Below, piece by piece: positions 1 through 23,945 of a DNA stretch of 24,244 nt; the first letter of the stretch is position 1, and each line of letters starts with the position of its first letter. Source of the DNA: Oscillatoria princeps RMCB-10 (lineage in GTDB: Bacteria; Cyanobacteriota; Cyanobacteriia; Cyanobacteriales; Oscillatoriaceae); assembly GCA_019359235.1 (NCBI GenBank), contig JAHHHT010000036.1:1-24244 (forward strand), written 5' to 3'. The translations under genes and the position numbers were made by a program. The notes under the pieces were generated by a model. It was not told the origin of the DNA and ran no database searches. It saw nothing but the letters and a program-made list of their open reading frames with translations.

Positions 1-215
1 TACGAACTTTTGGGCTGAAGCCCAACTACGAACTTTTGGGCTGAAGCCCAACTACGAACTTTTGGGCTGAAGCCCAACTACGAACTTTTGGGCTGAAGCC
101 CAACTACGAACTTTTGGGCTGAAGCCCAACTACGAACTTTTGGGCTGAAGCCCCATTGGGCTAAAGCCCAACTACGAACTTTGGGCTAAAGCCCAACTAC
201 GAACTTTGGGAGCAA
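1..215. repeat. Tandem array of a 26-bp unit (TACGAACTTTTGGGCTGAAGCCCAAC). There are about 6 perfect copies, then degenerate copies (GGGCTAAAGCCC variants). Each unit holds a palindrome TTGGGCT-GA-AGCCCAA. No spacers are present.
   Basis: The period-26 repetition from base 1 is directly visible. The array runs to the window edge and so may continue upstream. It lies just past the 3' end of the minus-strand tlyA-like gene. Confidence 0.9.
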
Positions 216-228
216 GCGTTCATCTGCG

Positions 229-1604: not shown

Positions 1605-1826
1605 CGGCGGTGGGGCGCGGTCGCTTTTGTTGCGGGTTGGAGTGCCGGTGGGACAGCAGTCCGGTTTGAGGCTATTTTGAAGCGTTTTAAAGCCGCCGCG
1701 GATCTGGGCTGACCGGTCAGAAGCCAGGACTCTTGGCCAACTTTTTATAGTTTCTGTTTAATCACTTATTTTTTGAAATGCCGGTTGGAAGGGCGGTGAG
1801 AAAGCCGGTTTCTGGATGCAAAAACA

Positions 1827-1863
1827 GTAGGGTGCGTTCCCCCTTTGGGGGAACGCACCCTAC
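1827..1863 (-). terminator. Perfect 17-bp stem / 3-nt loop hairpin GTAGGGTGCGTTCCCCC-TTT-GGGGGAACGCACCCTAC. On the minus strand it is followed by a T-run (the complement of AAAAACAG), so it is a candidate apcF terminator or a palindromic repeat element.
   Basis: Perfect inverted repeat read from the sequence. It shares the 12-mer AGTAGGGTGCGT with the 4726..5092 repeat family. It lies about 160 nt past the apcF stop. Confidence 0.5.
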
Positions 1864-2774: not shown

Positions 2775-2935
2775 GCGGGTACTGGGCATGGGGCATGGGG
2801 CATGGGGCATGGGGTATGGGATTTCAGGACACCTAGCACCTAACCCCTAACTTCTAACCCCTGACCCCTAACACCTAACTTCTAACCCCTGACCCCTGAC
2901 CCCTAACCCCTAACCCCTTAGGGCGTGGGGGCTGG
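2775..2935. repeat. Heptanucleotide tandem repeats (STRR-like): GGGGCAT x4-5, then CCCTAAC / CCCTGAC / ACTTCTA variants x about 12.
   Basis: Period-7 repetition is visible in the apcF / glnA divergent intergenic region. The CCCTAAC units look telomere-like but have a 7-nt period. Confidence 0.8.
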
Positions 2936-4643: not shown

Positions 4644-4712
4644 TGGGGCATGGGGCATGGGGTATGGGGCATGGGGGATTGGGCATTGGGCATTGGGCAT
4701 TGGGCATTGGTT
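4644..4712. repeat. Heptamer tandem repeats GGGGCAT / GGGGTAT / GGGCATT (about 9 units).
   Basis: Directly visible. Same family as the 2775..2935 array. Confidence 0.8.
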
Positions 4713-4725
4713 ACACCTAAGTATT

Positions 4726-5092
4726 AGTAGGGTGCGTGACGCCGCCGCACCGGCACTACTTGTGCGGAATTATCTCTTGGCGTCACGCACCCTACTGTAA
4801 AATAGTAGGCGTCACGCACCGCACGGCTGGACTTACTGGGGTGCGTGACGCCCCAACATAAGCGCACTATTTGTGCGGAATTATCTCTTGGCGGAAGGCA
4901 CCCTACTGTAAAATAGTGCGTGACGCCGCCGCACCGGCACTACTTGTGCGGAATTATCTCTTGGCATCACGCACCCTACTGTAAAATAGTAGGCGTCACG
5001 CACCGCACAGCTGGACTTACTGGGGTGCGTGACGCCGCCGCACAGGCGCACTACTTGTGCGGAATTATCTCTTGGCGTCACGCACCCTACTG
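4726..5092. repeat. Composite palindromic repeat array. Alternating modules A (AGTAGGGTGCGTGACGCC ... GGCGTCACGCACCCTACT around an inner CCGCAC..GTGCGG hairpin) and B (GGCGTCACGCACC ... GGTGCGTGACGCC), about 2.5 copies of a roughly 135-bp A+B unit.
   Basis: Nested inverted repeats and direct repetition were read from the sequence. The track ORF 4881..5081 (minus) lies wholly inside the array and is judged spurious. Confidence 0.85.
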
Positions 5093-8167: not shown

Positions 8168-8866
8168 ATGGGAAATCAGCCCCTAGTGAGCGCTATCGTA
8201 CCTGTGCGCAATTGCGAGCGCTATTTGGCAGAAGCGCTGGACAGTGCGCTGGCGCAGACTTACTTGCCGGTGGAGATATTTGTTGTGGATGACGGTTCAG
8301 CGGATGGGAGTGGGGAGATTGCCAAACGCTATGTGCCGGCTGTGCGGTATATCTTTCAAACCAGTGCCGGCGCTGCAGCAGCCAGAAACCGGGCAATTCC
8401 ACTAGCTAAGGGTGACTTTTTCGCTTTTCTGGATGCTGATGATGTCTGGCTTCCGGATAAACTTGCCCTGCAAATGGCAGCGTTTGATGCCGAACCAGAC
8501 CTTGACATTGTTACCGGCCATGTGCAACAATTTATCAGTCCAGAGTTAGACGCTGAAGGGATGAAAGGAGTTTATTGCCCACCTGAACCCATGCCAGGTT
8601 ATATCCCTACTGCTATACTCGTCAAGCGCGAAGCCTTTTTTCGGATTGGCTTGTTTGATGAAAATTATCCTGCCGAATATCAAATGGAATTTATCAACTG
8701 GTGTGCGCGTGCTGTGGAGCTTGGTTTGCATATAAAGGTGCTTCCCGAGTTAGTCGCGCGGCGGCGCTTGCACCAAACAAACCAGGAGCGCTCTCGCAAC
8801 TCGAGGCTGGAAATTGTGCGCATCCTGAAAGCTTCTCTCGACCGGCGGCGAGGTGAAAATGGGTAA
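8168..8866 (+). CDS. Glycosyltransferase family 2, paralog 3.
   Basis: VSAIVPVRNCERYLAEALDSA..VEIFVVDDGSADGS...AARNRAI..FLDADDVWLPDKL. Confidence 0.85.
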   Translation: MGNQPLVSAIVPVRNCERYLAEALDSALAQTYLPVEIFVVDDGSADGSGEIAKRYVPAVRYIFQTSAGAAAARNRAIPLAKGDFFAFLDADDVWLPDKLALQMAAFDAEPDLDIVTGHVQQFISPELDAEGMKGVYCPPEPMPGYIPTAILVKREAFFRIGLFDENYPAEYQMEFINWCARAVELGLHIKVLPELVARRRLHQTNQERSRNSRLEIVRILKASLDRRRGENG

Positions 8867-8898
8867 AAAATCGGGTTTCTTAAAGAAACCCGGTTTTT
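8865..8898 (+). terminator. Palindromic hairpin AAAAAATCGGGTTTCTT-A-AAGAAACCCGGTTTTT (10-bp stem flanked by an A-run and a T-run). It has a bidirectional terminator-like form and sits inside the operon between GT2 paralog 3 and the ABC gene.
   Basis: The perfect palindrome was read at 8872..8892. A T5 run lies downstream. It belongs to the dispersed GAAACCCGGTTTC family. Confidence 0.55.
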
Positions 8899-11941: not shown

Positions 11942-12006
11942 TTGCAGTGGCGCATTCGCCGCACAATCGCAATTATGGAGTTTCTCAGTTGGATGAAATA
12001 TGGCCC

Positions 12007-12040
12007 AAAAACCCGGTTTCTTTAAGAAACCGGGTTTCTC
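12007..12040. repeat. Palindromic hairpin AAACCCGGTTTCTT-TA-AAGAAACCGGGTTT of the GAAACCCGGTTTC family, 65 nt after the nucleotidyltransferase stop.
   Basis: Inverted repeat read directly. An A-run lies upstream, and there is only a weak U-tract downstream on the plus strand. Confidence 0.6.
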
Positions 12041-12218
12041 ACTACCTCACTAATATGAGGAATGCTATAGGGCATTTTAATGAATAAATCATAGTCAAAT
12101 TAAATGCCTAACAGCCGGCAGCTAGGGGGGAGCTGTCTGCCGGCTTGGCAAACGCTACCTTTATGTGTTACAATTATTTACAGTAGACGCCATTGCTTAC
12201 ACAGACCCAGCCATTCTT

Positions 12219-13277: not shown

Positions 13278-13282
13278 GTAGT

Positions 13283-14012: not shown

Positions 14013-14765
14013 ATGCCCAGTTCCCAAAGTTGGCGTTTGATTCCCTTGCTGCAAGCGCCCGGTGATATGCAAATGGCTATCGACCTGTGGTTGCTAGAGC
14101 AGCACCGGCAGGCGTTGCACCCGCCGGCACTGCGGTTTTACACTTGGTCGCCACCGGCCATTTCCCTGGGCTACCACCAGCGCCGGTGGCCAGAATTCTG
14201 GCAGCACCTGACTTGGCAAGGAGTGCCGGTGGATCTGGTGCGGCGTCCCACCGGCGGGCGGGCTGTCCTGCACCAAGGGGATTTAACGTATGCGGTGGTT
14301 ACTTCCGGATTTACCGGCAGCCGCCTCCAAACCTATCAAGAGATTTGCCAATTCTTGATCCAAGGCTGGCGCTCCCTGGGCGTCGAGTTGGGCTGCGGTG
14401 AGGCGGGGCGGGGTTACATCCACAACCCCAGCTGTTTTGGCACCGCAACCGGCGCTGATCTAATTATCCCCAGCGGCGCTAAGCTGGCAGGCAGCGCCCA
14501 GCTGCGGCGCGGACCGGCAATTTTGCAGCACGGCTCAATGCCGCTGCTGCAAGATAGCCAGCTATTCGAGCGGGTGTTTGGCACAGCGCCCGTGCCGGTG
14601 GAGTTACCCTTATCCCCGCACGGAGACACCCTAATTCAAACCGTCACCGATGCTTTAATTGCCGCTTTCAAAGACAGCTTCGGCGTCGCACTGGTGGAGC
14701 AACCCCTGTCAGACGCCGAGTGGCAGGCCATCCTAGAGTTTAGATCCCTCATTCCGGCGATCTAG
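14013..14765 (+). CDS. Lipoate-protein ligase / octanoyltransferase family protein (BPL_LplA_LipB domain).
   Basis: WRLIPL.....MQMAIDLWLLE..., then RRPTGGRAVLHQGDLTYAV and the downstream GSAQ motif, match the LplA/LipB catalytic domain. Confidence 0.75.
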   Translation: MPSSQSWRLIPLLQAPGDMQMAIDLWLLEQHRQALHPPALRFYTWSPPAISLGYHQRRWPEFWQHLTWQGVPVDLVRRPTGGRAVLHQGDLTYAVVTSGFTGSRLQTYQEICQFLIQGWRSLGVELGCGEAGRGYIHNPSCFGTATGADLIIPSGAKLAGSAQLRRGPAILQHGSMPLLQDSQLFERVFGTAPVPVELPLSPHGDTLIQTVTDALIAAFKDSFGVALVEQPLSDAEWQAILEFRSLIPAI

Positions 14766-14778
14766 AGCGCCGGTGTTG

Positions 14779-15125
14779 AAATCTCAGAAACCGGGTTTCT
14801 TTTGGTTTTCCCTGCAACAAATTGATTTTTCCCGGGAAAGAAACCCGGTTTCTTCACCCCGCCAGAAACTCTCAGAAACCGGGTTTCTTTTGGTTTTCCC
14901 TGCAACAAATTGATTTTTCCCGGGAAAGAAACCCGGTTTCTTCACCCCGCCAGAAACTCTCAGAAACCGGGTTTCTTTTGGTTTTCCCTGCAACAAATTG
15001 ATTTTTCCCGGGAAAGAAACCCGGTTTCTTCACCCCGCCAGAAACTCTCAGAAACCGGGTTTCTTTTGGTTTTCCCTGCAACAAATTGGTCTTGATAGGC
15101 ATTGAAACCCGGTTTCTTCACCCCG
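14779..15125. repeat. Tandem array of an 88-bp unit (3 perfect copies plus a divergent fourth). Each unit is a long hairpin AGAAACCGGGTTTCTTT...AAAGAAACCCGGTTTCT.
   Basis: Exact 88-bp periodicity, with unit starts at 14787, 14875 and 14963. The track ORFs 14784..14996 and 14872..15102 are frame artefacts of the repeat. Confidence 0.9.
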
Positions 15126-15130
15126 GCACT

Positions 15131-16357
15131 CTAGGGAGCCTGCAGACTTAGGGCGTCAGCAGTTGCTTTGGCGATTGCCGGCAGCTGCAAACCGGGAGGG
15201 TAAGTGCCCTCAGACTTAATGCGCTTGATCTCCGCCTCAGGAATCCGCAGTTGCAGCTTTTGGCACAAGGCACGCACAATGTCGCCCCTGTCGGTGACAC
15301 CGGCAACGGCACCGGCTCTGGAGAGGACAGTAATCCGGGGTAATTTGTGGGTTTCCAGCTGATTAATCACTTCAACCAGAGGCGTATTTTCTTCAGCGGT
15401 GACGATCTCCCTCAGGGGGCGGACAATGCTGTGCAGCGTCTGAGTTTCCCAGAGACTGCGCTCTGCGAATCTGATGTCATCAGGGACAACCATGCCGCGA
15501 TAGCGACCCTCCGAAGCGGCGTAGTAGGGTCTTTCTGGCCCTGGCAAGTCTGCCAGCAGGTACTGGTCGGCAAACTGGCGCAGGGTCATGCCGGCATCCA
15601 CCACCCGAAACTCGCGGCTCATGGCATCAGCGGCGCTCAGCTGCACCAAGGCTTCTTGCAGATCGGTGAGCCGGTCGTAGGCGCTGGCATTGCGGGTGAC
15701 AAACCAGCCGAGCATGGCAATCCAGATGCCAGCCACACCGCTCTCACCCGCGAGCAGCGCGACTGCGATTCCGAAGCTGACTGCTATCGCTCCCAGGGTT
15801 TGCCCCGCCTTCGCCGCCCAGTGGACGCCGGCAAACCGGTCGCCGGTCAGCTTCCAGACTGCAGCTTTGACAATCTGCCCCCCATCGAGGGGCAACCCGG
15901 GAATCATGTTGAACAGGGCCAGCACCAGGTTGATTCTGGCCAGATCCGCTGTTACAACTTTCACCGGCTCCGGCGCGGGCAGCAGCAGCCCCAGCAAGCT
16001 CAGCAGGCCGAACAGGAGGAAACTGACCGCAGGGCCGGCGATCGCCACTTGAAACGCTTGGCCCGGTGTCTTGGATTCTTGGTCAATGGCAGCCACCCCA
16101 CCAAACAGAAATAGGGTGATGGAATTGACTTTGATGCCCTGAGATCGCGCCACTAAACTGTGACCCAGTTCGTGGAGCAACACCGAGCCAAAAAGCAGCA
16201 GGGCCATTCCCAACCCAGCGCTCCAAGCAACTGCAGGCCCCCATTTGGCGTAGTCGAACTGGTTCACTAAGGTGAGTGCGGCTAAGATAATGAACCAAGA
16301 AGAATCTATATAAAGGGGGATGCCAAACAGAGAGCCAATTCGCCAACTTGTCTGCAT
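15131..16357 (-). CDS. Site-2 protease family (peptidase M50) with tandem CBS domains.
   Basis: HELGHSLVA (HExxH) lies in a transmembrane region, with later transmembrane helices and a C-terminal CBS-like region. The upstream ribosome-binding site reads AAGGAAAA. Confidence 0.85.
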   Translation of the reverse strand: MQTSWRIGSLFGIPLYIDSSWFIILAALTLVNQFDYAKWGPAVAWSAGLGMALLLFGSVLLHELGHSLVARSQGIKVNSITLFLFGGVAAIDQESKTPGQAFQVAIAGPAVSFLLFGLLSLLGLLLPAPEPVKVVTADLARINLVLALFNMIPGLPLDGGQIVKAAVWKLTGDRFAGVHWAAKAGQTLGAIAVSFGIAVALLAGESGVAGIWIAMLGWFVTRNASAYDRLTDLQEALVQLSAADAMSREFRVVDAGMTLRQFADQYLLADLPGPERPYYAASEGRYRGMVVPDDIRFAERSLWETQTLHSIVRPLREIVTAEENTPLVEVINQLETHKLPRITVLSRAGAVAGVTDRGDIVRALCQKLQLRIPEAEIKRIKSEGTYPPGLQLPAIAKATADALSLQAP

Positions 16358-16591: not shown

Positions 16592-16795
16592 CAAAGGCCC
16601 TTTTAGATTTTAGATTTTGGATTTTAGATTTTGGATTGCCAATTCGGCAACACCATCTATAAAAAGGAATAGACGAATCCTTTTTTAATTTTTAATTTTT
16701 AATTTTTAATTGATAAGCTGGCCTGCTAATGGTTAATGGTTAATGGCACACCCCTTTATTGCCAATTAACAATTAACCATTAGAAATTAGCTGTG
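16592..16795. repeat. Heptamer arrays TTTTAGA/TTTTGGA (x5), TTTTTAA (x4) and TAATGGT (x3), which with TGCCAATTAACAATTAACCATTAG form a long imperfect hairpin just past the psaK 3' end.
   Basis: Period-7 repeats and the inverted arrangement were read from the sequence. Confidence 0.8.
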
Positions 16796-18711: not shown

Positions 18712-18721
18712 TTTTAATAAT

Positions 18722-18860
18722 CCGGAGAGTGCTACCTCTCGCTCCTCGTTTTCAGGCAGAATAATCGGGAGGGTGCTGCCTCTCGCTCCTCGTTTTCAGG
18801 CAATCGGGAGGCAGAGCCGACCGAGTCTCGTTCCCAGGCTCTGCCTGGGAACGAGAAAAT
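18722..18860. repeat. Direct repeat of about 30 bp (TGC(T)ACCTCTCGCTCCTCGTTTTCAGGCA x2), plus a hairpin CGTTCCCAGGCTCTGCCTGGGAACG that recurs at 22806..22836.
   Basis: Read directly. Lies between the divergent hypothetical gene and crtI. Confidence 0.7.
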
Positions 18861-18882
18861 TGGTATAACAGGGGGAGTGAGG

Positions 18883-22744: not shown

Positions 22745-22957
22745 TACCTTCGTGTAAATTTCAGAACCCCGGTTTCGTAGGGGCGGGCCCCCGTGCCCGC
22801 CCTCTTGCCTCGTTCCCAGGCTCCCGCCTGGGAACGATACAATAGAGGCTCTGACTTGAAAATAGGACAGGCGTCCCGCCTGTCCTACGTCTTTTTTTTA
22901 CATACGCCGCTTCCCCTCGGTGTGAGGTGGGTGACGCTGCGCGTCACCCACCCTACT
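22745..22957. repeat. Cluster of structured repeats: an AACCCCGGTTTC element, GGGGCGGGCCCCCGTGCCCGCCC, a CGTTCCCAGGC..GCCTGGGAACG hairpin, GGACAGGCG-TCC-CGCCTGTCC followed by T8 (a likely bidirectional terminator for tex and the convergent methyltransferase gene), and GGTGGGTGACGC-TGC-GCGTCACCCACC.
   Basis: All inverted repeats were read directly. The T-run TTTTTTTT lies at 22885..22892. Confidence 0.75.
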
Positions 22958-23864: not shown

Positions 23865-23945
23865 GAAACCCGGAAGGGGGCGGGCACGGGACTCAGGGGG
23901 CGGGCACGGGGGCCCGCCCCTACAAAACCGGGTTTCTCAGTACAT
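23865..23945. repeat. Nested element: GAAACCCGG ... CCGGGTTTC outer arms around GGGGGCGGGCACGGG x2 and a GGGCGGGC..GCCCGCCC hairpin. Related to the element at 22755..22800.
   Basis: Read directly. Confidence 0.7.

What the first reader, a model, noticed from the sequence alone, without database searches (positions are those of the whole stretch)
14779..15125. 88-bp tandem hairpin array that shares a core palindrome with dispersed intergenic elements
Three perfect copies and one divergent copy of an 88-bp unit each fold as AGAAACCGGGTTTCTTT / AAAGAAACCCGGTTTCT. The same GAAACC(C/G)GGTTTC core appears as single palindromes at 8872, 12009, about 22758 and about 23925, and as CCGGTTTCTGG near 1795 and 1811. 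This is a genome-specific repeat family, often at gene ends, that has expanded into a tandem array between the lplA-like gene and the convergent M50 protease gene. Perfect copy identity suggests recent expansion and possible copy-number variation.
Basis: seen in the sequence. Interest (0 to 1): 0.5.

Follow-up and report, generated by a model that had tools for sequence, protein, structure and literature searches.

The report
REPIN cluster of a cyanobacterial REP family
The 88-bp tandem array is a cluster of small hairpin-forming repeats (a "REPIN cluster") from a repeat family shared by many filamentous cyanobacteria and partnered with a dedicated transposase; this is a known kind of selfish or domesticated DNA, here in a version I found no description of.

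Summary
Positions 14786-15049 hold three identical 88-bp units, and 15050-15117 holds a fourth unit with a divergent loop. Each unit is an inverted doublet of the near-palindromic arm AGAAACC(G/C)GGTTTCT. The 13-mer occurs 14 times in the window against 0.06 expected.

The family is not genome-specific. The same arm occurs in dozens of filamentous cyanobacteria in three forms:
- tight hairpins (arm, 5 nt, arm);
- doublets of about 65 bp;
- tandem arrays, 22 of 31 with an 80-90 bp period.

At six independent loci in other organisms, a REP-associated tyrosine transposase (RAYT) gene is flanked on both sides by these arms. The gene matches Pfam Y1_Tnp and NCBIfam NF047646, and its only solved relative is 4ER8. 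The family is therefore the REP/REPIN partner of a cyanobacterial RAYT clade, and the window's array is an ordered REPIN cluster between convergent genes.

Two close relatives carry different versions at the same site (2 x 51 bp; at least 2 non-identical units). Oxynema has no element there.

The elements favour gene 3' ends and fold at about -28 kcal/mol, so terminator activity is plausible but untested.

Two features are unusual: there is no GTAG/CGTC tag, and the arms are almost invariant across orders. Verdict: new member of a known kind, moderate interest.

The parts
14778..15125 (.). Whole tandem array (REPIN cluster). It fills the 365-bp gap between two convergent stop codons.
   Evidence: TRF: period 88, 4.0 copies, 96% matches; direct and inverted repeat families.
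14786..15049 (.). Three identical 88-bp units. Each is G-arm (AGAAACCGGGTTTCTTT), 34-nt loop, C-arm (AAAGAAACCCGGTTTCT), 20-nt spacer TCACCCCGCCAGAAACTCTC.
   Evidence: 0 differences between the three 88-mers. The spacer equals the start of the right flank plus the end of the left flank, the signature of tandem duplication of a doublet with its flanks.
15050..15117 (.). Fourth doublet: same arms (the C-arm match is shortened to 14 nt), and the distal half of the loop is different (GGTCTTGATAGGCATT).
   Evidence: The same divergent last unit is seen in independent short-read contigs L005 and L006.
14013..14765 (+). Upstream flanking gene, an LplA/LipB-type lipoate ligase. Its stop codon lies 21 nt before the first arm.
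   Evidence: Pfam PF21948 and PF03099.
15131..16357 (-). Convergent flanking gene, an M50 site-2 protease with a CBS domain. Its stop codon lies 13 nt after the last arm.
   Evidence: Pfam PF02163 and PF00571.
8866..8898 (.). Dispersed family member: a tight hairpin AAAAATCGGGTTTC-TTAAA-GAAACCCGGTTTTT. It starts at the stop codon of a GT2 glycosyltransferase gene and is flanked by A5 and T5 runs.
   Evidence: RNA fold -18.3 kcal/mol, z -5.1. Flagged as terminator-like. Conserved at the orthologous site in relative L122.
12008..12038 (.). Dispersed family member: a tight hairpin (C-arm, TTTAA, G-arm) 66 nt downstream of the NTP_transf_5 gene. It is nested in a degenerate larger palindrome (about 11974-12070).
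   Evidence: RNA fold -19.1 kcal/mol, z -6.4. Conserved in L122.
22764..22776 (.). Single arm (GAACCCCGGTTTC) 38 nt after the Tex gene stop, abutting a GTAG-tagged GC-rich palindrome.
23865..23936 (.). Split hairpin GAAACCCGG ... AAAACCGGGTTTC, with two GC-rich GTAG-type palindromes inserted between the halves.
1800..1812 (.). Degenerate single arm GAAAGCCGGTTTC.

Best explanation
The array is an ordered REPIN cluster: head-to-tail copies of one REP doublet together with about 20 nt of its flanks.

The REP is the 15-nt near-palindrome AGAAACC(G/C)GGTTTCT. Two copies in inverted orientation, separated by a poorly conserved loop of about 36 nt, form the doublet (a hairpin of about 65-70 bp).

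The family belongs to a REP/REPIN-RAYT system that is widespread in filamentous cyanobacteria. A single-copy IS200-like HUH tyrosine transposase (RAYT) is flanked by these repeats and, by analogy with characterised RAYTs, recognises the folded repeats on single-stranded DNA and disseminates or maintains them in trans.

At this locus a doublet landed in the tolerant 3'-3' junction of lplA-like and M50 genes. That junction is essentially empty in Oxynema. The doublet was then amplified by tandem duplication (unequal recombination or replication slippage between arms), most recently giving three identical copies.

Because the array is probably transcribed as the 3' ends of both genes, its 15-17-bp stems probably also act as a transcription terminator or insulator and as a barrier to 3' exonucleases.

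Shown: anatomy, distribution, RAYT adjacency in other genomes, bias to 3' ends, differences between strains, compensated arm variants.
Inferred: RAYT-dependent spread, the duplication mechanism, terminator activity, and the presence of the RAYT in this particular genome.
For: 1. Anatomy. Three identical units plus one variant. The spacer is right-flank start plus left-flank end.

2. Family.

3. Spacing between arms is sharply bimodal and orientation-specific. At 18 nt the order is C-arm then G-arm in 68 cases against 8. At 49-53 nt it is G-arm then C-arm in 91 cases against 7.

4. Arrays. 31 arrays were found, and 22 have a period of 80-90 bp. In the arrays whose ends I read (window, L002, L011, L012, L050, L055, L059, L112) the first arm is a G-arm and the last a C-arm, so the doublet is the unit.

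5. Arms are kept as mutual reverse complements through compensated changes. The inner pair is C:G in 41 cases, T:A in 45 and other in 4. Both subtypes occur in one genome.

6. RAYT link.
- L082:4325-4882(-) matches Pfam Y1_Tnp at E 1.3e-11 and NCBIfam NF047646 'REP-associated tyrosine transposase' at 81.6 bits, cutoff 80.
- Its only match among solved structures is E. coli TnpA-REP, 4ER8.
- It lies between a 2-unit array and a doublet followed by an array of at least 8 units of this family.
- Homologues in Phormidium R1S1, Kamptonema animale, Planktothrix FACHB-1365, Nostoc PCC 7524 and a soil-metagenome allele (one allele carried on three metagenome contigs) are all flanked on both sides. The nearest arms are 4-63 nt away, with 2-10 arms within 450 nt on each side.

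7. Turnover at this locus, and an insertion/deletion polymorphism of a hairpin-bearing element near 13280.

8. Bias to 3' ends, chi-square about 27. Stable folds of -27.7 and -27.8 kcal/mol per hairpin.

9. Literature. [quoted passage not shown] Di Nocera 2013 (PMC3733652) describes REP clusters as dimers reiterated in tandem with flanking DNA.
Against: - The RAYT of the source genome was not located. There is none in the 24-kb window, and the 8.63-Mb contig could not be scanned.
- The family lacks the GTAG/CGTC terminal tag of canonical RAYT-associated REPs.
- Loops differ widely among doublets within one genome. This looks like old, slowly turning-over copies rather than a recent transposition burst.
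- No target-site duplication is evident.
- The array itself grew by duplication, not by repeated insertion.
- No transcript or termination data exist. On the minus strand the hairpins are followed by only UUU.
- Gene context was judged from crude ORF calls.
Confidence: 0.75

Rival explanations
1. The hairpins are simply intrinsic terminators kept by selection for termination between convergent genes. The array is a duplicated terminator with no mobile-element biology behind it.
For: - Copies are enriched at 3' ends and in convergent junctions.
- On the plus strand each C-arm/spacer/G-arm hairpin is followed by UUUUGGUUUU.
- The 8866-8898 hairpin has A5 and U5 flanks and was flagged by the terminator scan.
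- Dispersed copies are conserved at orthologous sites in a relative.
Against: - Terminators do not share a 15-nt sequence across cyanobacterial orders.
- The orientation rule for C-arm and G-arm order is not explained by hairpin stability.
- Compensated arm subtypes behave as families.
- RAYT genes are flanked by the same repeats at 6 of 6 loci examined.
- Most tight hairpins are followed by only TTTCT, not a U-run.
Confidence: 0.12
2. The array is a tandem small-RNA gene cluster like NsiR1. Each 88-bp unit would have its own promoter and terminator and produce a regulatory RNA.
For: - Tandem units each contain a strong hairpin.
- Arrays of similar period recur in many genomes.
- NsiR1 is a precedent for tandem sRNA arrays in cyanobacteria.
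Against: - No sigma-70-like hexamer pair lies inside 14766-15130.
- There is no Rfam match at gathering thresholds, and only generic hairpin hits far below threshold in the permissive search.
- Loop and spacer sequences are not conserved between genomes.
- Arrays show no consistent strand relative to neighbouring genes.
Confidence: 0.04
3. The arms are double-stranded DNA binding sites for a dimeric protein (nucleoid, partition or regulatory). The roughly 84-bp period (8 helical turns) would phase the sites on one face of the helix.
For: - Each arm is a 7-1-7 palindrome.
- The period clusters at 83-88 bp even though loop sequences are unrelated.
Against: - In the T:A subtype each arm loses its own palindromy, while complementarity between the two arms is kept. 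This points to a single-strand hairpin rather than a duplex operator.
- Copies are dispersed by the hundreds at gene ends.
- The RAYT association offers a simpler trans-acting factor.
Confidence: 0.05
4. The array is an assembly artefact or collapsed repeat with no biological copy number of four.
For: Short-read assemblies break in the array. The count of four comes from one assembly.
Against: - Both junctions and the divergent last unit are reproduced in independent read sets.
- Arrays occur at the same site in two other strains.
- Thirty comparable arrays exist in other genomes.
Confidence: 0.03

Closest known systems
REPINs and ordered REPIN clusters with their RAYT (Pseudomonas fluorescens SBW25; Bertels & Rainey 2011, PMC3116915)
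   Same: - Short extragenic palindromes are organised as inverted doublets that form a long hairpin.
- The spacer is less conserved than the REP.
- Clusters are tandem repeats of near-identical doublets including flanking sequence.
- Clusters sit next to a single-copy Y1/HUH transposase gene.
- Several sequence subtypes occur per genome.
   Different: - The arm is only 15 nt and is itself an almost perfect palindrome.
- There is no GTAG tag.
- The doublet is about 65-70 bp, and a second 'tight' form of 33 nt is common.
- The family is nearly invariant across Oscillatoriales and Nostocales rather than species-specific.
- Loops within a genome are very divergent.
- No excision or transposition evidence was obtained here.
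Enterobacterial REP/BIME mosaics (for example BIME-2); from my own knowledge, not a paper read here
   Same: Palindromic units of alternating orientation are separated by two alternating spacer types, reiterated in tandem, and located at gene 3' ends and between convergent genes.
   Different: The sequence is unrelated. E. coli REPs carry GTAG and have longer, bulged stems. The BIME spacer motifs (and their IHF or gyrase sites) have no counterpart shown here.
GTAG-tagged cyanobacterial REPs (GTAG-12, -15, -16; Di Nocera 2013, PMC3733652) and cyanobacterial TnpA-REP subclasses 2.4, 2.7 and 2.8 (Quentin 2018, PMC6006769)
   Same: - Both are REP families of cyanobacteria linked to RAYT genes.
- Dimers and tandem clusters include flanking DNA.
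- Dimers are nested inside longer 'TATAGGA...' palindromes. This resembles the TATAGCGGTTTTCA... palindrome that wraps tight hairpins here.
   Different: - This family has no GT[AG]G tag.
- The RAYT carries NHYH ... WE ... YIHLNP, which does not fit cleanly into any subclass signature listed in that paper.
- GTAG-tagged GC-rich palindromes do occur in the window, but they are a separate family.
Intrinsic (Rho-independent) terminators, bidirectional type
   Same: Stable stem-loops lie directly after stop codons. Some copies have A-run and T-run flanks. Copies are enriched in convergent junctions.
   Different: The stem sequence is shared across genomes and orders, multiplied in arrays, and associated with a transposase. 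Most copies have a short U-tract.
NsiR1 tandem sRNA array of heterocystous cyanobacteria
   Same: It is a tandem array of short units, each ending in a hairpin, in a cyanobacterial intergenic region.
   Different: No promoter per unit, no conserved unit sequence, and no Rfam match.

Membership tests
REP/REPIN-RAYT system | A short palindromic sequence, extragenic and strongly over-represented | tested here: met
   14 copies in the window against 0.06 expected. Additional, non-selected clusters occur at 0.3-1.4 per 10 kb in other cyanobacterial loci. Only about 15 of roughly 170 clusters lie inside called ORFs.
REP/REPIN-RAYT system | REPs organised mainly as inverted doublets able to form a hairpin, with the spacer less conserved than the REP | tested here: met
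   Spacing peaks at 18 nt and at 49-53 nt, each with a fixed arm orientation. Arms are nearly invariant and loops divergent. Compensated arm changes. Folds of about -28 kcal/mol.
REP/REPIN-RAYT system | A RAYT (Y1/HUH, IS200-like) gene flanked by the same REPs | tested here: met
   Met at 6 of 6 independent loci in other organisms (L082, L129, L131, L133, L134, L135). Not testable for the window's own genome: there is no RAYT in the 24 kb, and the full contig was not searchable.
REP/REPIN-RAYT system | A conserved terminal GTAG or CGTC tetranucleotide next to the palindrome | tested here: not met
   The bases before the arm are cA, tA or gA, and the base after is T. No GT[AG]G or CGTC appears in 90 doublets or 52 tight hairpins.
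REP/REPIN-RAYT system | Ordered clusters are tandem repeats of the doublet plus flanking sequence | tested here: met
   Window: 3 identical units plus 1 variant, with a spacer made of right-flank start plus left-flank end. 31 arrays in other genomes.
REP/REPIN-RAYT system | Evidence of mobility (excision or insertion events) | tested here: inconclusive
   There are presence/absence and structural differences between relatives with 91-96% identical DNA, and absence in Oxynema. There is no clean empty-site/filled-site pair and no population data.
Intrinsic terminator | A stable stem-loop followed by a U-tract on the transcribed strand | tested here: inconclusive
   Plus strand: hairpins are followed by UUUUGGUUUU. 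Minus strand: only UUU. The 8866-8898 hairpin has U5 and A5 flanks.
Intrinsic terminator | Located downstream of genes | tested here: met
   48 convergent, 67 tandem and 16 divergent sites, against a baseline of 95:279:113. In tandem contexts the median distance is 56 nt from the upstream gene end and 109 nt from the next gene start.
Intrinsic terminator | Terminates transcription in vivo | not testable with these tools
   No transcript data were available.
MITE | Terminal inverted repeats plus a target-site duplication, and a parent IS with the same ends | tested here: not met
   Inverted arms are present, but no direct duplication flanks the doublets. No transposase-sized unit bounded by arms was found in the one candidate arm pair I inspected (L050). 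The associated transposase is the Y1 type, which makes no target-site duplication.
NsiR1-like tandem sRNA array | A promoter and a terminator in every unit, and a conserved sRNA sequence | tested here: not met
   No promoter-like hexamer pairs in the array. No Rfam family. Unit sequence is not conserved between genomes.
CRISPR array | Identical repeats separated by unique spacers | tested here: not met
   Both spacers are repeated identically. No CRISPR family was found in the Rfam scan.

The most novel reading that the evidence does not exclude
This may be an untagged REP family whose 15-nt arm has stayed almost invariant, together with its RAYT, from Oscillatoriales to Nostocales. That would imply a very old, vertically co-inherited REPIN-RAYT partnership with a recognition and cleavage rule different from the GTAG/CGTC rule. 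The fixed geometry of the doublets and arrays (about 50 + 35 = about 84 bp) would then reflect a host-level function, such as bidirectional insulation of 3' ends or a structural role, rather than pure selfish spread.
Probability: 0.3. Interest if true: 0.6.

Novelty: new member of a known kind. Interest (0 to 1): 0.4.

Why it matters
REPIN-RAYT systems have been studied mostly in proteobacteria, where the repeats carry a GTAG or CGTC tag. This family lacks such a tag. It has an unusually short, self-palindromic arm and a strict orientation-and-spacing grammar. It is shared by dozens of ecologically important filamentous cyanobacteria, including Microcoleus, Planktothrix, Oscillatoria, Phormidium, Kamptonema, Scytonema and Nostoc. 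It therefore offers a second, phylogenetically distant system in which three questions can be tested:
- how RAYTs recognise their repeats;
- how long such partnerships persist;
- why ordered clusters form.

There are also practical consequences. These arrays break short-read assemblies (six contigs here end inside arrays). They attract spurious gene calls. They vary in length between close strains, which makes them possible typing markers. Finally, they are candidate natural terminators or insulators for cyanobacterial engineering.

Tried and rejected
- Rfam at gathering thresholds on the whole window, and a permissive scan on 14600-15300, gave nothing but generic hairpin noise.
- A full-text search for the arm sequence found no relevant paper. 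Elhai 2008 on small dispersed repeats is not held. The Trichodesmium repeat-derived ncRNAs are unrelated, with units of 736-973 bp.
- The PLSDB plasmid search with the array gave no match. IMG/VR gave only 2 hits, so there is no phage link.
- A metagenome scan with the window-specific loop found only the orthologous locus of one more strain. It gave no second locus, but the source genome is not in that collection.
- Coding potential: 88 is not a multiple of 3, and there is no ORF of 80 aa or more in the array. The 76-aa JGI gene call there is an artefact.
- CRISPR was rejected because the spacers are identical.
- Gene-family association of array-flanking ORFs: only Uma2 recurred, in 7 of 119 flanking ORFs against 4 of 148 controls, which I judge not significant (no formal test was run).
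- Strand preference of arrays relative to genes was inconclusive, 5 against 2.
- A conserved structure inside the loop was not established. There are hints of a small ACGAA...TTCGT hairpin in the T:A subtype and of an internal direct repeat. The MAFFT orientation of these near-palindromic units is unreliable.
- Locating the RAYT of the close relative through cluster membership failed, because no assembly accessions were returned. An equal contig length of 11,344 nt turned out to be a coincidence.
- A look for a parent IS bounded by arms, in the one candidate arm pair I inspected (L050), found none.

Full report

Yes. Tandem Repeats Finder reports 14778-15125 with period 88, 4.0 copies and 96% matches. 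In the phase that starts at the arm, the three 88-mers at 14786, 14874 and 14962 are identical. The fourth unit (15050-15117) keeps both arms but has a different distal half-loop, then runs into unique flank.

The 17-nt arms AGAAACCGGGTTTCTTT and AAAGAAACCCGGTTTCT are perfectly complementary. They alternate with a 34-nt and a 20-nt spacer.

The core GAAACCSGGTTTC, allowing one mismatch, occurs 14 times in 24 kb against 0.06 expected, and no shuffle reached this. The non-array copies are:
- two tight hairpins, at 8866-8898 and 12008-12038;
- two single or split arms next to other repeats, at 22764 and 23865-23936;
- one degenerate copy, at 1800.

The flanking genes are a convergent LplA/LipB-type ligase and an M50 site-2 protease.

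The window is 100% identical to part of an 8.63-Mb JGI contig. Independent short-read contigs reproduce both array junctions and the divergent last unit, but they break inside the array.

**2. The family is not genome-specific.**

The organism is a filamentous cyanobacterium. Its best named relatives for the M50 protein are Oxynema, at 68% identity.

The hits are overwhelmingly from filamentous cyanobacteria:
- Oscillatoriales: Oscillatoria, Microcoleus, Tychonema, Planktothrix, Phormidium, Lyngbya, Arthrospira, Kamptonema-like and others.
- Nostocales: Scytonema, Stigonema, Dulcicalothrix, Iningainema.
- A minority of tight hairpins come from unrelated phyla and may be chance terminators.

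The two arm forms differ only in the central base and are reverse complements of each other. Their order is not random:
- Arms 18 nt apart run C-arm then G-arm in 68 cases against 8. These are the tight hairpins, consensus A-GAAACCCGGTTTC-TTnAA-GAAACCGGGTTTC-T.
- Arms 49-53 nt apart run G-arm then C-arm in 91 cases against 7. These are the doublets, with a loop of about 36 nt.

Doublets are often reiterated with a spacer of about 20 nt. I found 31 arrays, 22 of them with a period of 80-90 bp and 1.9 to more than 8 copies. In the arrays whose ends I read (window, L002, L011, L012, L050, L055, L059, L112) the first arm is a G-arm and the last a C-arm. The doublet is therefore the unit, and the window's 88 bp x 4 array is a typical example.

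Arms are almost invariant, while loops and spacers diverge even within one genome. The inner arm pair exists in two compensated states: C:G in 41 cases, T:A in 45, and other combinations in 4. Other compensated double changes also occur (GATACC/GGTATC, GAATCC/GGATTC). In the T:A type each arm loses its own palindromy but stays complementary to its partner. Both types coexist in Microcoleus A006_D1 (L059 and L075). This argues for single-strand hairpin pairing and for sequence subfamilies, not for a duplex operator.

**3. The decisive link: a RAYT gene.**

I screened all 1,838 open frames in the fetched DNA with a regular expression for HUH...Y motifs. It hit one ORF, L082:4325-4882(-) in Oscillatoria sp. 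HE19RPO.
- It matches Pfam Y1_Tnp at E 1.3e-11.
- It matches NCBIfam NF047646 'REP-associated tyrosine transposase' at 81.6 bits, cutoff 80.
- Its only solved relative is E. coli TnpA-REP, 4ER8.
- It lies between a 2-unit array and a doublet followed by an array of at least 8 units of exactly this family.

Its homologues are named RayT or REP-associated tyrosine transposase by JGI and NCBI. They occur in the same genera that carry the repeats.

I looked up five further loci: Phormidium R1S1, Kamptonema animale CS-326, Planktothrix FACHB-1365, Nostoc PCC 7524, and a soil-metagenome allele carried on three metagenome contigs. In every case the gene is flanked on both sides by arms, doublets or arrays. 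The nearest arm is 4-63 nt away, and 2-10 arms lie within 450 nt on each side.

RAYT genes flanked by their cognate REP clusters are the hallmark of REPIN-RAYT systems. [quoted passage not shown] Di Nocera et al. describe REP clusters as dimers reiterated in tandem with flanking DNA, and REP dimers nested in longer TATAGGA-type palindromes (PMC3733652). That nesting matches the TATAGCGGTTTTCA... palindrome that wraps tight hairpins here.

**4. History of this locus.**

- The 20-nt spacer TCACCCCG|CCAGAAACTCTC equals the first bases of the right flank (TCACCCCGG...) plus the last bases of the left flank (...GAAATCTC). The array therefore grew by tandem duplication of a doublet with its flanks.
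- A relative with 92-96% identical DNA (GCA_964546515.1) has only 2 x 51 bp at the same site. Its arms are the same, but the loop is the 7-nt GGGTGGG and the spacer is 10 nt.
- Another relative, at 91-95% identity (Ga0185317_100274), has at least two non-identical units of about 87 bp. Their loops look like recombinants of the window's loop types.
- In Oxynema aestuarii the same gene order is kept, but the two stop codons are 2 bp apart and there is no element.
- The dispersed tight hairpins at 8866 and 12008 are conserved in the relative. An extra hairpin-bearing palindrome is present in the relative but absent from the window near 13280.

The element therefore arrived after the split from Oxynema. 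It has been restructured repeatedly, and the three identical copies are recent.

**5. What it probably does.**

Across all loci the elements favour convergent junctions (48 observed against about 26 expected) and avoid divergent ones (16 against about 30). In tandem contexts they sit closer to the upstream gene's end (based on crude ORF calls).

Each hairpin folds at about -28 kcal/mol, and the tight ones at -18 to -19 kcal/mol. On the plus strand the short-loop hairpins are followed by UUUUGGUUUU. On the minus strand they are followed by only UUU.

Terminator or insulator activity, and 3'-end protection, are therefore plausible by-products or co-opted roles, but they are untested.

There is no promoter-like site in the array, no Rfam family, no strand preference and no phage or plasmid link.

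**6. Comparison and verdict.**

The array works like, and passes most membership tests for, a REPIN cluster of a REP-RAYT system.

The main defining feature that fails is the GTAG/CGTC tag. Evidence for mobility was inconclusive. The RAYT motif set (NHYH, WE, YIHLNP) also does not fit cleanly into the published cyanobacterial subclasses, which are described as flanked by GT[AG]G-tagged REPs (PMC6006769).

I found no description of this particular arm in the held literature.

It is best filed as a new member of a known kind. Three points remain unexplained:
- the orientation and spacing grammar;
- the period of about 84 bp;
- the near-invariance of the arm across orders.

The main gap is that the RAYT of the window's own genome could not be located with the tools available.

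Noticed in passing
window 1-217: A 26-bp tandem array (TACGAACTTTTGGGCTGAAGCCCAAC, about 6-8 copies, first copies 100% identical). Each unit holds a small GGGCT-GAAGCCC hairpin. The window starts inside the array.
   Followed up: no
window 2784-2918, 4646-4710, 16601-16782: Several heptamer tandem repeats (GGGCATG, CCTAACC, GGGCATT, TTTTAGA, TTTTTAA, TAATGGT). They resemble the STRR repeats of filamentous cyanobacteria.
   Followed up: no
window 4732-5092: A 184-bp unit repeated twice (93% matches), containing GTGCGTGACGCC / GGCGTCACGCAC palindromes.
   Followed up: no
window 1828-1860, 22778-22806, 23874-23923: GC-rich palindromes that do carry a 5' GTAG (GTAGGGTGCGTTCCCCC-TTT-GGGGGAACGCACCC; GTAGGGGCGGGC-CCCCGT-GCCCGCCC). 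This is a second, canonical-looking REP family in the same genome.
   Followed up: partly
window 23865-23936: Two of the GTAG-type palindromes sit between the two halves of a GAAACCCGG...CCGGGTTTC hairpin. One repeat family is nested inside another.
   Followed up: partly
window 11974-12070; L092, L106, L058, L090, L104; L122 1760-1900: Tight hairpins are often wrapped in a longer palindrome (TATAGCGGTTTTCAyTTGGATGAAGTAC ... GTACCTCA..ATGAAAACCGCTATA). The copy in the window is degenerate. An extra copy is present in relative L122 but absent from the orthologous window site near 13280. A similar nesting in TATAGGA... palindromes is reported for other cyanobacterial REPs.
   Followed up: partly
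L002 1602-1632, in an indel relative to window 18760-18863: The close relative carries a tight hairpin with an A/T centre (GAAACCAGGTTTC-5 nt-GAAACCTGGTTTC) inside about 200 extra bases that are missing from the window.
   Followed up: no
L004 11256-11486 (window array, minus strand): The JGI annotation calls a 76-aa gene inside the array. The unit length of 88 is not a multiple of 3 and there is no family hit, so this is most likely a spurious call.
   Followed up: partly
L001, L003, L005, L006, L082, L122: Short-read or metagenome contigs end inside arrays of this family. These arrays are systematic assembly breakpoints.
   Followed up: partly
ORFs flanking arrays in L007-L121; L134 2208-2849: Uma2 (PF05685) putative endonuclease genes flank arrays in 7 of 119 cases, against 4 of 148 control ORFs. 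I judge this not significant (no formal test was run). One Uma2 gene also sits next to the Nostoc PCC 7524 RAYT.
   Followed up: yes
window 18716-18802 and 18830-18870, 22806-22835: A 44-bp tandem duplication, and GTTCCCAGGC...GCCTGGGAAC hairpins. These belong to further small repeat families in the intergenic DNA.
   Followed up: no
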